DNA of 64,000 bases from a virus. Lineage: Duplodnaviria > Caudoviricetes. The translations under genes and the position numbers were made by a program. The notes beneath the pieces are model-generated. The model made no database searches and was not told the origin of the DNA. It saw nothing but the letters and a program-made list of their open reading frames with translations. Of this stretch, positions 52,429-53,607 are shown piece after piece; the stretch's first letter is position 1, and every line of letters begins with the position of its first letter. The stretch is from positions 1 to 64,000 of the IMG/VR virus record IMGVR_UViG_3300021387_000199. One strand, 5' to 3'.

Positions 52429-52501
52429 TCGGAACGGCAGGAGTTGAACCTGCGACCCCGCCTTGTGGGGCGGTTGCTTTAACCGACTAAGCTACGTTTC
52501 G
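52429..52501 (-). ncRNA. tRNA-like element 1 (tRNA-Pro-type body, 6-nt anticodon loop CCACAA)
   Basis: Acceptor, D and T arms form; anticodon loop non-canonical. Confidence 0.7.
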
Positions 52502-52610
52502 AGATGTCTGCTTTAGAAGTGTAATCGCCCACATCTCTAAAACCGACCATGTGAAAGGAGGCCAGCAAAATGAACAACCGTCGATCCAGCCATAGTTTAG
52601 CCGGATAGGA

Positions 52611-52681
52611 TTGGAAAGTCGGGAATCGAACCCGAGTCGGCGGCTCCTGGCGCCGCTGCTCTACCACTGAGCTACCTTCCG
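52611..52681 (-). ncRNA. tRNA-like element 2 (7-nt loop GCCAGGA, C1.A72 mismatch)
   Basis: Full cloverleaf but lacks U33; nominal CAG anticodon on a non-Leu body. Confidence 0.7.
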
Positions 52682-52841
52682 ATTCCGCCTACTCCTACTA
52701 GTCCAGAAAATGTATTATTCAGAAAGGTTGTGCTAAACGACCAGCAATAACCGCACACGTTATTACCAATCGTATCCTTACTGGTAATATATCTACCGAA
52801 AATAGCGGAGTACCCGGGTAGGTCTGACGGAGAGACCTTAG

Positions 52842-52926
52842 TCGAAACGCCCAGATTCGAACTGGGATCCTGCTCTCATTGTTCTTAGGGAGATCTCCGC
52901 TGCTCTGCCAGTTGAGCTACGTTCCG
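52842..52926 (-). ncRNA. tRNA-like element 3 (expanded irregular anticodon region)
   Basis: CGGAACG/CGTTTCG acceptor; D and T arms intact. Confidence 0.7.
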
Positions 52927-53200
52927 ATATGCGCTTTCTGGATAAACGCTAACCGCCACGTATTTCTAAGTACTTTGCTGCGCTACTTTACGTGAGCCAC
53001 TACTTCACGCTCCCTCTTGTCACGAAAGAGGGCGGGAATCGGATGACTTAACCGAACATCACCGGACGGAATCCTTGCAGCGCACCGTCTTGCTGCCCTT
53101 TATTCATTTTGGCTCAGGTGATAGGCAGACCATGAGCAACAAGTAATGAAGTGAAACGTCTTTGTGAGGTGATGAATAAAGAGTAAGAATGTCCACCTCG

Positions 53201-53270
53201 TCGGAACGGCAGGAGTTGAACCTGCGACAATCTAATAGTTTAGCTACTCTGCCAACTGAGTTACGTTCCG
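53201..53270 (-). ncRNA. tRNA-like element 4 (short arm CTAA-ACTA-TTAG)
   Basis: Perfect CGGAACG/CGTTCCG acceptor; truncated anticodon arm containing CTA. Confidence 0.7.
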
Positions 53271-53272
53271 CA

Positions 53273-53344
53273 TATCCGCAGGACGATTCGAACATCCCTT
53301 TCCCGTCGGCAGACGGGCGTAATCCTCCACTATACGATACGGAT
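53273..53344 (-). ncRNA. tRNA-like element 5 (Asp/Glu/Gly-type body, 6-nt loop CTGCCG)
   Basis: ATCCGTA/TGCGGAT acceptor, CCCGT/ACGGG stem, TTCGAAT T loop. Confidence 0.65.
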
Positions 53345-53409
53345 AACCAGTTACACATGTGCCTTCGTCATTTCAAACAGCTTGTACTTCACCGCCCTAC
53401 TATGACTAA

Positions 53410-53480
53410 TCGGAACGGCAGGATTCGAACCCGCATCAAATAACCATCACTGGCTCGTTTTACCATTAAACCACGTTCCG
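53410..53480 (-). ncRNA. tRNA-like element 6 (4-nt loop GTGA)
   Basis: Perfect CGGAACG/CGTTCCG acceptor; D and T arms intact. Confidence 0.7.
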
Positions 53481-53490
53481 AATGCATAAC

Positions 53491-53607
53491 TCAGAACGAC
53501 AGGATTCGAACCTATATCTCACACCAACCCCAACGGATAATTAACTGATGCGCACTTGTTAACTCCTAAGTTTATGGTGTGACTCTAACCAATTGAGCTA
53601 CGTTCCG
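53491..53607 (-). ncRNA. tRNA-like element 7 (~45-50-nt insert in anticodon loop)
   Basis: CACACCA/TGGTGTG stem enclosing a long insert; D, T and acceptor arms intact. Confidence 0.7.

What the first reader, a model, noticed from the sequence alone, without database searches (positions are those of the whole stretch)
52429..53607. Array of seven tRNA-like RNAs with conserved bodies but scrambled anticodon arms
Six share a tRNA-Pro-like acceptor (CGGAACG/CGTTCCG or close variants, A73) and keep intact D and T arms with varied but still paired stems. Their anticodon loops are 4 or 6 nt, irregular, lack U33, or carry a ~45-50-nt insert. Decay confined to one arm suggests selection for the elbow/acceptor shape, not for decoding. 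Hypotheses: decoys against anticodon nucleases or tRNA-sensing defences; synthetase or ribosome sponges; RNase P/Z punctuation releasing the structured 60-275-nt spacers; or scaffolds displaying variable loops. Elements 3 and 4 contain CTA in the aberrant arm.
Basis: partly seen in the sequence, partly recalled or inferred. Interest (0 to 1): 0.8.

Follow-up and report, generated by a model that had tools for sequence, protein, structure and literature searches.

The report
Non-decoding tRNA look-alike array in phage
A rumen phage carries a row of seven genes for RNAs that keep the full shape of a transfer RNA but cannot read codons. At least four belong to families conserved in other phages, and two of them bracket a conserved unnamed RNA, so this looks like a working RNA toolkit and not dead tRNA genes.

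Summary
Seven elements (E7 53607-53491 to E1 52501-52429) pass Rfam's tRNA threshold (39-55 bits). Their bodies are almost perfect: 109 of 112 acceptor, D and T stem pairs, and U8, the D-loop GG, the T-loop and A73 in all seven. None has a normal anticodon loop: the loops are 4 or 6 nt, 7 nt with C33, or arms longer by 12-43 nt.

They are not neutral debris. E3, E4, E6 and E7 have relatives in unrelated rumen-phage contigs. In E3, E4 and E6 the replaced arm keeps its pairing through compensatory changes; E7 shares only arm architecture with one contig.

The 273-nt 'spacer' between E4 and E3 is a conserved, unnamed structured RNA found in 12 contigs with covariation. It starts 1 nt after a tRNA-like end and stops 0-5 nt before the next tRNA-like start.

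My best reading is that host tRNA-processing enzymes cut the island into stable tRNA-shaped RNAs with blunted anticodon ends, and this also frees the RNA between them. Their target is unknown. No expression data exist.

The phage recodes TAG in its late genes and has a normal CUA suppressor tRNA elsewhere. This scan has reported similar arrays, and the same spacer RNA family, on other phage DNA. Interest is moderate to high.

The parts
53491..53607 (-). E7: 117-nt tRNA-like RNA. Pro-type acceptor with G2:U71. The anticodon arm is replaced by a ~66-nt domain with an outer stem and an inner GUUAAC/GUUAAU hairpin.
   Evidence: Rfam 42.9 bits. ARAGORN -i reads it as tRNA-Pro(GGG) with a 41-nt intron, but L003 5188-5301 has the same D arm and hairpin architecture without the GGG segment. 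Fold.
53410..53480 (-). E6: 71-nt tRNA-like RNA. The arm is a 4-bp stem capped by a GUGA tetraloop, followed by an 8-nt variable region.
   Evidence: Rfam 49 bits. It is 93-97% identical to L116, L131 and L003. The loop-closing pair switches A-U to G-C in L116, L131 and runs X7 and X8 (window 53451/53446).
53273..53344 (-). E5: 72-nt tRNA-like RNA with its own acceptor. 5-bp arm with the 6-nt loop CUGCCG, which resembles a Gly-GCC loop one base short.
   Evidence: Rfam 39.5 bits and parse. In run X5's contig only one of the listed differences falls in E5 (C3 to U, still pairing with G70), against at least 10 in the adjacent 65-nt spacer. No relative found.
53201..53270 (-). E4: 70-nt tRNA-like RNA. 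4-bp arm with the ACUA tetraloop. It lies directly upstream of the conserved RNA.
   Evidence: Rfam 47.7 bits. Relatives are L015 (84% over 119 nt including the downstream hairpin) and L095. Forms of 60-61 nt with no arm occur in L104, L031, L042 and L096.
52927..53199 (-). Conserved structured RNA between E4 and E3, about 215 nt in other phages. The window copy has a 52-nt insertion at about 53162-53111.
   Evidence: Alignments A2 and A3. Three helices give 98% paired cells and 6 pairs changed on both sides, with 0 of 500 shuffles as high. No Rfam family at E up to 10.
53166..53199 (-). 5' hairpin of the conserved RNA (6-bp stem, 22-nt loop). Ten loop bases (53183-53174) can pair with 53105-53096 to give a possible H-type pseudoknot.
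   Evidence: Nearly invariant (identical but for one base) in 11 contigs. One compensatory change in the stem in L103. The second stem is predicted by RNAalifold, but L128 carries two mismatches in it, so the pseudoknot is unproven.
52842..52926 (-). E3: 85-nt tRNA-like RNA with G3:U70. The arm is a 3-bp stem with a GAUC loop inside an 8-nt palindrome, followed by a conserved ~15-nt single strand.
   Evidence: Rfam 42.4 bits. Relatives L133 and L132 are both 85 nt, and L132 also follows the conserved RNA. The palindrome has three versions with two covarying pairs. G3:U70 is absent from both relatives.
52611..52681 (-). E2: 71-nt tRNA-like RNA. 7-nt loop GCCAGGA with C33, and a C1:A72 mismatch.
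   Evidence: Rfam 55.3 bits. ARAGORN calls it 'Leu(CAG)' but the body is type I. No relative with this loop in the viral collection.
52429..52501 (-). E1: 73-nt tRNA-like RNA. 5-bp G+C-rich arm with the 6-nt loop CCACAA, and an A3:C70 mismatch.
   Evidence: Rfam 46.5 bits and parse. Only the body resembles other elements (L067, 78%).
52053..52066 (-). Terminator-like hairpin with a T run at the downstream end of the non-coding island.
   Evidence: Consensus scan. The number of such sites in the region is not above chance, so this is weak.
50293..51546 (-). Downstream neighbour: a PIN-PhoH fusion gene with two in-frame TAG codons.
   Evidence: Pfam PhoH 2.7e-25 and PIN_4 2.6e-13; the TAG positions are. 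The relative L118 (54% identity) also has an RNA island upstream.
54373..55101 (-). Upstream neighbour: a 242-aa protein without TAG codons.
   Evidence: No Pfam or PHROG hit. The Atlas feature search points to replication-initiator / winged-helix clusters, which is a lead only.

Best explanation
The seven elements are genes for non-decoding, tRNA-shaped RNAs. They sit in a roughly 1.6-2.3-kb non-coding island on the minus strand, between a TAG-free gene and the TAG-recoded late genes of a 134-kb rumen phage.

Selection keeps everything that the host tRNA-maturation enzymes read: the acceptor stem, A73, the D/T elbow and the absence of an encoded CCA. The anticodon end is deliberately blunted into short tetraloop or hexaloop hairpins (E1, E4, E5, E6), a loop without U33 (E2), or a longer structured arm (E3, E7).

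I infer that the island is transcribed as one or a few precursors. RNase P would cut at each 5' end and RNase Z just after each A73, and the CCA enzyme would finish the ends. This would yield stable L-shaped RNAs that cannot enter decoding. It would also release the conserved ~270-nt RNA between E4 and E3 with defined, structure-protected ends.

Shown here: the anatomy, conservation in other phages, covariation, and the bracketing of the spacer RNA. Inferred: transcription, processing, and the end use. For the end use I favour occupation of a host or phage factor that reads only the tRNA body.
For: Bodies are intact: 47 of 49 acceptor, 27 of 28 D and 35 of 35 T pairs, and all elbow nucleotides are present. 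All seven exceed the Rfam threshold.

The arms are ordered hairpins, not mismatched remnants.

Families recur in unrelated phage contigs with compensatory change:
- E6: the A-U to G-C closing pair of the GUGA loop appears in L116, L131 and runs X7 and X8.
- E3: three versions of the 8-nt palindrome around GAUC, with two covarying pairs.
- E4 relatives L015 and L095: the tetraloop-closing pair is G-C in L095 and A-U in L015.

Of 66 distinct full-length elements with this Pro-type 3' end in the viral collection, ARAGORN does not as tRNA-Pro, 14 of them not as any tRNA; some of the 28 have ordinary anticodon loops on this body.

In run X5's contig (run X6's agrees at most of the places) at least 10 of 15 differences over 159 nt lie in the 65-nt E6-E5 spacer (binomial p about 0.04 by my estimate).

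The conserved RNA starts 1 nt after the discriminator in all 11 contigs that carry its 5' hairpin, whatever the upstream arm looks like. It ends 0-5 nt before the next tRNA or tRNA-like element in 8 contigs. Its helices covary.

No CCA is encoded, which in Bacillota is the mark of RNase Z substrates (established knowledge, Pellegrini et al. 2003, from memory).
Against: There is no RNA evidence of any kind. No listed run is on record as RNA, and contigs cannot show RNA ends.

E1, E2 and E5 have no relatives, so selection on them rests only on their intact bodies and one variant contig.

A natural variant (run X8) lacks E5 to E1 and the conserved RNA, so most of the array is dispensable.

E7-E6 and E5-E4 are separated by only 10 and 2 nt, so punctuation cannot be the whole purpose.

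Promoter-like and terminator-like sites are not above chance. Folding energies are not unusual.

The host is unknown. The only hint is one Lachnospiraceae bin that holds the conserved RNA.
Confidence: 0.55

Rival explanations
1. Body mimics as sponges or decoys. The mature RNAs titrate a factor that recognises the tRNA acceptor and elbow without needing an anticodon. Candidates are SmpB of the trans-translation system, an acceptor-end toxin of an abortive-infection system, or a tRNA-processing or modifying enzyme. This is a possible end use within the best explanation and not a contradiction of it.
For: [quoted passage not shown] The cassettes behave like accessory arms-race genes. Array content differs almost completely between relatives with 54-66% protein identity. 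The same RNA families sit at 90-97% identity in unrelated contexts. Copy number varies. Forms of 60-61 nt lacking the arm occur in four contigs.
Against: No target was identified. D stems are intact, unlike a tmRNA tRNA-like domain. G3:U70 is present only in E3 and not in its relatives. The phage itself has no Ro60, RtcB, CCA enzyme or peptidyl-tRNA hydrolase that could serve as a partner. Decoys for anticodon nucleases are implausible because no anticodon loop is present.
Confidence: 0.3
2. Punctuation only. The tRNA-like bodies are purely cis-acting cutting signals and protective ends for neighbouring RNAs or mRNAs, and the excised tRNA-like pieces have no role of their own.
For: The conserved RNA is precisely bracketed by tRNA-like elements. 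The upstream element's arm differs freely between contigs while the junction stays fixed.
Against: Specific arms are conserved with covariation across phages (E6, E3), which a mere cutting signal does not need. Adjacent elements 2 and 10 nt apart have nothing between them to release. The run X8 variant keeps E7 and E6 but loses the RNA they would supposedly serve.
Confidence: 0.2
3. Neutral remnants. The elements are decaying tRNA pseudogenes left by duplication and recombination inside a former tRNA array.
For: Repeated bodies do recombine: the 981-nt deletion in run X8 joins E6 to the end of E1 through 14 shared bases. E1, E2 and E5 have no relatives. E1 and E2 each carry one acceptor mismatch.
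Against: Only 3 of 112 body stem pairs are mispaired, although every one of the seven anticodon loops is altered. Compensatory changes keep the arms paired. E6 is 93-97% identical in three otherwise unrelated contigs.
Confidence: 0.1
4. Odd but working decoders. Candidates are two-base or four-base reading by 6-nt or expanded loops, unusual amber readers (E3 and E4 contain CUA), an initiator-like E2, or an intron-bearing tRNA-Pro (E7).
For: The phage recodes TAG. ARAGORN -i reads E7 as Pro(GGG) with an intron. CUA recurs in the E4 relatives L015 and L095 and in L133. Earlier notes of this scan propose four-base readers in other phage arrays.
Against: A canonical CUA tRNA exists at genome position 118774-118846. 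The 4-nt loops of E4 and E6 cannot present an anticodon. None of the loops has U33. E7's GGG segment is absent from its relative in L003, the insert is too short for a group I intron, and it has no Rfam intron match. The CUA of E3 is UUA in L132. No gene needing a frameshift was looked for.
Confidence: 0.07

Closest known systems
Phage T4 RNAC and RNAD (species 1 and 2 RNAs)
   Same: Small stable phage RNAs encoded with the tRNA genes. They are made during infection and their function is still unknown (PMC9697503). That they are partly tRNA-like and processed with the tRNAs is from my memory.
   Different: No sequence similarity: blastn of the island against 50,697 phage records, a collection of GenBank phage records that should include T4, found nothing. 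Here there are seven elements with complete cloverleaf bodies, several recurring families and a bracketed third RNA.
tmRNA tRNA-like domain, including the TLD-only RNA of mycobacteriophage DS6A
   Same: A tRNA-shaped RNA without an anticodon loop, carried by a phage, with a documented sponge effect on SmpB (PMC4131195).
   Different: The window elements keep a paired D stem and a short arm. G3:U70 is not conserved. ARAGORN finds no tmRNA.
tRNA-like punctuation of non-coding RNAs (MALAT1-mascRNA; MHV68 tRNA-miRNA units; mitochondrial tRNA punctuation)
   Same: A tRNA-shaped element directly abutting another RNA, so that RNase P or RNase Z defines that RNA's end. The conserved RNA here is flanked in this way on both sides.
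   Different: Those systems are eukaryotic or from animal viruses and are known to me from memory only. Processing here is inferred and not shown.
Bacterial Y RNA (YrlA) tRNA-like module
   Same: A non-decoding RNA that mimics the tRNA acceptor, D and T region, with a protein-binding stem where the anticodon arm would be (PMC4201824, listed).
   Different: In YrlA the RNA ends form the Ro60-binding stem (from memory). Here the ends form the acceptor stem. There is no Rfam YrlA match and no Ro60 gene in the phage.
Phage tRNAs with altered anticodon loops that escape or neutralise tRNA-cleaving defences
   Same: Phage-borne tRNA genes shaped by conflict over the host tRNA pool (cited in earlier notes of this scan; not read here).
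   Different: Those are working decoders with 7-nt loops. The window elements cannot decode.

Membership tests
Canonical decoding tRNA (Rfam RF00005) | Cloverleaf with 7-bp acceptor, D and T arms, and elbow nucleotides | tested here: met
   39.5-55.3 bits against a threshold of 29. 109 of 112 stem pairs. U8, GG and the T-loop in 7 of 7.
Canonical decoding tRNA (Rfam RF00005) | 7-nt anticodon loop with U33 and a three-base anticodon on a 5-bp stem | tested here: not met
   Loops of 4 nt (E4, E6) and 6 nt (E1, E5), 7 nt with C33 (E2), and 35- and 66-nt domains (E3, E7).
Intron-bearing tRNA (group I or bulge-helix-bulge type) | A removable insert that leaves a conserved functional anticodon loop | tested here: not met
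   The E7 insert is about 41-43 nt and has no intron family match. The relative in L003 keeps the hairpin but not the GGG loop segment. No RtcB ligase in the phage.
tmRNA or TLD-only mimic | G3:U70 alanine identity pair, conserved | tested here: not met
   Present only in E3. L132 and L133 have G3-C70.
tmRNA or TLD-only mimic | Tag reading frame and pseudoknots, or a D region without a stem | tested here: not met
   ARAGORN tmRNA search negative. D stems are paired.
T4 RNAC/RNAD-type phage stable RNA | Sequence relationship to the T4 RNAs | tested here: not met
   blastn against the phage collection found no match.
T4 RNAC/RNAD-type phage stable RNA | Accumulates as a stable processed RNA during infection | not testable with these tools
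   No RNA run holds the stretch.
Y RNA (YrlA) with Ro60 | Rfam match and a Ro60 (TROVE) partner | tested here: not met
   No Rfam hit at E up to 1. No TROVE domain in the 134-kb record.
Plant-virus-type tRNA-like structure | Match to the Tymo_tRNA-like or related models | tested here: not met
   20.1 bits against a threshold of 40.
Phage attachment-site tRNA fragment | Only the 3' part of a host tRNA gene, as a single copy | tested here: not met
   Both acceptor strands are present in seven tandem copies. True 3'-only fragments were seen in 32 other loci for comparison.

The most novel reading that the evidence does not exclude
Rumen phages trade a kit of RNA cassettes. The kit consists of tRNA-shaped scaffolds whose anticodon end is blunted or carries a specific structured arm (GUGA hairpin, GAUC palindrome hairpin, long GUUAAC hairpin), together with a conserved possibly pseudoknotted RNA that those scaffolds cut free. 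Each cassette would neutralise a particular host factor that reads the tRNA body, which would make this an RNA-only layer of phage counter-defence or host takeover.
Probability: 0.2. Interest if true: 0.85.

Novelty: new variant of a known kind. Interest (0 to 1): 0.6.

Why it matters
Phage tRNA genes are usually explained by codon supply or by escape from tRNA-cleaving defences. Here a whole array is kept by selection yet cannot decode. The same element families, and a bracketed unnamed RNA, recur at high identity in unrelated rumen phages.

That points to a class of phage RNAs that act through tRNA shape alone, and to host tRNA-processing enzymes being used to manufacture other phage RNAs. 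It also gives concrete, short candidates (E6 at 71 nt, E3 at 85 nt, the ~215-nt RNA) for binding-partner and processing experiments.

Annotation pipelines currently call these elements tRNA-Leu, tRNA-Ile, 'undetermined' or nothing.

Tried and rejected
- blastn of the island against the phage collection gave no match.
- Expression: no RNA holder was listed, and all four runs laid were contigs, two of them of unrecorded kind and one filed as metatranscriptomic but probably DNA, so nothing on expression or RNA ends.
- Searches for relatives of E2 and E5 in the viral collection found nothing. The metagenome scan for E6 added one new contig.
- Promoter-like and terminator-like sites were not above chance.
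- Folding-energy z-scores of the elements and of the conserved RNA were unremarkable.
- E7 as an intron-bearing tRNA-Pro was rejected because the relative lacks the anticodon segment.
- E3 as an alanine-accepting tmRNA-like RNA was rejected because G3:U70 is not conserved.
- A crude ORF-length test for TGA recoding in the other loci gave many flags, but I read a TGA followed by a terminator-like hairpin as a real stop in L001, so I drew no conclusion.
- Short matches between the conserved RNA and 23S rRNA motifs that I recalled are within chance expectation for 9-10-mers, so I dropped them.
- A 6-7-nt complementarity between E3's single strand and the 5' hairpin loop of the conserved RNA is not kept in L132, so I dropped it.
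- GGAG-like motifs occur in three arms, but the enrichment is weak (about p 0.05) and I did not pursue it.
- Partner genes in the phage (CCA enzyme, RtcB, Ro60, peptidyl-tRNA hydrolase) were all absent.
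Full report
**What is there.** The window is the first 64 kb of a 134,294-base IMG/VR virus record estimated 83% complete. On the minus strand between 53607 and 52429, Rfam's tRNA model finds seven matches of 39.5-55.3 bits against a threshold of 29. I call them E7 to E1 in the order of transcription. ARAGORN reports five of them, three with two-base 'anticodons'. A direct parse gives 47 of 49 acceptor pairs, 27 of 28 D-stem pairs and 35 of 35 T-stem pairs. 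All seven have T8, a GG in the D loop, a TTCRAnT T-loop and A73, and none has an encoded CCA. Six share the C1-G72 acceptor CGGAACG or a one-base variant; E5 has its own acceptor. No further T-loop motif lies in the island.

**The anticodon domains.** None is canonical, but none is disordered either.
- E1: a 5-bp G+C-rich stem with a 6-nt loop.
- E5: a 5-bp stem with the 6-nt loop CUGCCG.
- E4: a 4-bp stem with the ACUA loop.
- E6: a 4-bp stem with a GUGA (GNRA-type) tetraloop and an 8-nt variable region.
- E2: a 7-nt loop with C at position 33, plus a C1:A72 mismatch.
- E3: 12-13 nt longer than normal.
- E7: carries a hairpin about 43 nt longer than normal.

'Scrambled' is therefore the wrong word. 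The codon-reading end has been replaced by compact or extended hairpins.

**Genome context.** The minus-strand block from about 51.5 kb down to 1 uses TAG as a sense codon.
- PIN-PhoH (50293-51546) has two in-frame TAGs.
- A 6,811-codon frame (2248-22683) has 83.
- The terminase has 10.
- The portal, virion-protein and endolysin genes lie in the same block.

The plus-strand block has almost no in-frame TAG. A canonical tRNA with anticodon CUA lies at genome position 118774-118846 and a tRNA-Gln(UUG) at 42743-42815. Earlier notes of this scan on the same genome argue that TAG means glutamate here. I did not test that, and I used TAG=Q only as a placeholder for searches. The island sits between a TAG-free 242-aa gene (54373-55101, possibly a winged-helix replication initiator on an Atlas lead only) and the first TAG-containing genes.

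**Relatives of the elements.** They include ordinary 74-nt tRNA-Pro genes, 32 fragments that hold only the 3' part of a tRNA and look like attachment sites, and many full-length elements with the same body and an aberrant middle. Of 66 distinct full-length elements, ARAGORN does not as tRNA-Pro, and 14 of those it does not call as any tRNA; a few of the 28 carry ordinary anticodon loops such as UAU on this body. Four window elements fall into recurring families.
- E6 is 93-97% identical to elements in L116, L131 and L003. The pair closing the GUGA loop is A-U in the window and L003, and G-C in L116, L131 and bovine-gut runs X7 and X8 (window 53451/53446).
- E3 has 85-nt relatives in L133 and L132. 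Its arm holds a 3-bp stem with a GAUC loop inside a perfect 8-nt palindrome that occurs in three versions, with two pairs changed on both sides. A conserved single-stranded stretch follows.
- E4 has relatives in L015 and L095, in which the pair closing a CUAG loop is A-U or G-C. It is also close to 60-61-nt forms in four contigs that have no arm at all.
- E7 shares its D arm and a 'GUUAAC ... GUUAAY' hairpin architecture with L003 5188-5301, which lacks the GGG segment that made ARAGORN call E7 an intron-bearing tRNA-Pro.
- E1, E2 and E5 have no relatives that share their arms.

**Natural variation.** Contigs of four bovine-gut runs were laid on the island. In run X5 a contig covering 53272-53430 differs at 15 places. 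At least 10 of these lie in the 65-nt E6-E5 spacer. The only listed change inside E5 turns C3 into U, which still pairs with G70. If differences fell evenly, this concentration would have a probability of about 0.04 by my estimate. In run X8 one contig joins 52428 to 53410 through 14 shared bases. That variant keeps E7 and E6 but lacks E5 to E1 and everything between them. The array therefore changes in copy number by recombination between its repeated bodies, and most of it is dispensable, which fits an accessory role.

**The 'spacer' that is a gene.** BLAST of the island against the fetched loci showed that the 273 nt between E4 and E3 is conserved elsewhere. Two pattern scans, plus a genome-collection scan that added one more contig (L132), gave 12 contigs with the 3' core and 11 with the 5' hairpin.
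- The RNA is about 215 nt elsewhere; the window copy has a 52-nt insertion.
- It always begins 1 nt after the discriminator of a tRNA-like element whose arm differs from contig to contig.
- In 8 contigs it ends 0-5 nt before the next tRNA or tRNA-like element.
- Three helices that I drew on alignment A3 are 98% paired, with 6 pairs changed on both sides. None of 500 shuffles reached this, and slid controls fell to 30-50% paired.
- The 5' hairpin loop can pair with a downstream run of ten bases to give an H-type pseudoknot. One contig carries two mismatches there, so this remains a proposal.
- No Rfam family matches it, even at E up to 10.
- One copy lies in a contig binned to an uncultured rumen Lachnospiraceae genome. 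This is a weak hint at a Bacillota host.

**How it most likely works.**
- Shown: intact tRNA bodies, ordered non-decoding arms, family-level conservation with compensatory change, and an RNA gene bracketed by two of the elements.
- Inferred from established tRNA biology: RNase P recognises the acceptor/T-arm helix and the elbow, and RNase Z cuts CCA-less precursors after the discriminator. These points come from my own knowledge. A transcript of the island would therefore be cut into seven tRNA-shaped RNAs and the intervening pieces. The CCA enzyme would then tail the tRNA-shaped ones.
- Consequence: blunting the anticodon end would keep these RNAs out of decoding and away from anticodon-directed enzymes, while every contact with factors that read only the body would remain.
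- Beyond that I can only rank possibilities. Body mimics that occupy such a factor have a precedent in the TLD-only RNA of mycobacteriophage DS6A and the SmpB titration it suggests (PMC4131195). Pure punctuation is made unlikely by the conserved arms and by neighbours only 2 and 10 nt apart. Neutral decay is contradicted for E3, E4, E6 and probably E7. Odd decoding is contradicted by the loop geometry and by the presence of a normal CUA tRNA.

**Comparison with what is known.** The nearest phage precedents are T4 RNAC and RNAD, described as RNAs of still unknown function and classed as late RNAs (PMC9697503). There is no sequence relationship to them. YrlA-type Y RNAs, tmRNA, plant-virus tRNA-like structures and attachment-site fragments each fail a defining feature (see the membership table). 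[quoted passage not shown] None of those appeared among the Rfam matches here.

**Earlier reports of this scan.** The scan has already reported comparable non-decoding arrays in other phages. The kind is therefore not new to it, and I rate this a new variant of a known but poorly described kind. This case adds:
- an array made only of non-decoders;
- named, recurring element families with covariation in the replaced arm;
- direct evidence of copy-number change;
- the bracketing of a conserved RNA by two of the elements.

**Limits.**
- There are no expression data.
- The host is unknown.
- Covariation counts rest on few, partly related sequences.
- The collection scans were pattern-based, so they are biased towards elements that share the motifs I searched for.

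Noticed in passing
window 1-51546 (minus strand); genome 118774-118846: The late genes (terminase, portal, endolysin, a 6,811-codon frame with 83 TAGs) use TAG as a sense codon, while plus-strand genes do not. A canonical CUA tRNA lies outside the window. Earlier notes on this genome argue that TAG means Glu.
   Followed up: partly
window 50293-51546 (-): PIN-PhoH fusion (an RNase domain plus a PhoH ATPase) lies about 0.9 kb downstream of the array's last element. The relative L118 has the same gene and also an RNA island upstream.
   Followed up: partly
window 34487-34824 (-) and 33722-34429 (-): Group I intron (Rfam 58.8 bits) next to a GIY-YIG-type homing endonuclease gene.
   Followed up: no
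window 52428|53410 junction in run X8: A natural variant lacks 981 nt (E5 to E1 plus the conserved RNA) through recombination between the identical 3' ends of E6 and E1.
   Followed up: partly
L118 1228-1410 and 1925-2075; L120; L132; L133 8030-8160: Shells resembling type II tRNAs (long variable arm), with an unusual TGCAAAT T-loop and 80-150-nt inserts, recur in related RNA islands.
   Followed up: no
L122 about 2352-2450; L127 (minus strand, after the conserved RNA): A second conserved motif of about 90 nt follows the conserved RNA, directly upstream of a DNA-polymerase-like gene in L122 and of an uncharacterised gene in L127. It may be a cis-regulatory RNA.
   Followed up: no
L071 11288-11404: A tRNA-like element whose arm seems to contain a second T-arm-like hairpin, that is, a nested tRNA-like piece.
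   Followed up: no
L047, L103, L123, L125, L127, L132 and others: A hairpin of the form GCCnGG-AAAGA-CnGGC, with a covarying pair, recurs a few bases before the 5' ends of tRNA-like elements, also at places other than the conserved RNA. It is absent from the window.
   Followed up: partly
L067, L124, L126 (and, on other acceptors, L003 4482-4557 and L118 1147-1219): tRNAs with anticodon UAU are common in these islands, often on the same Pro-type acceptor body. This suggests that array members arise by duplication of one body or are homogenised by recombination.
   Followed up: no
L111 13592-13660: Hammerhead type II ribozyme match (38.7 bits against a threshold of 37) in a contig that also carries aberrant tRNA-like elements.
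   Followed up: no
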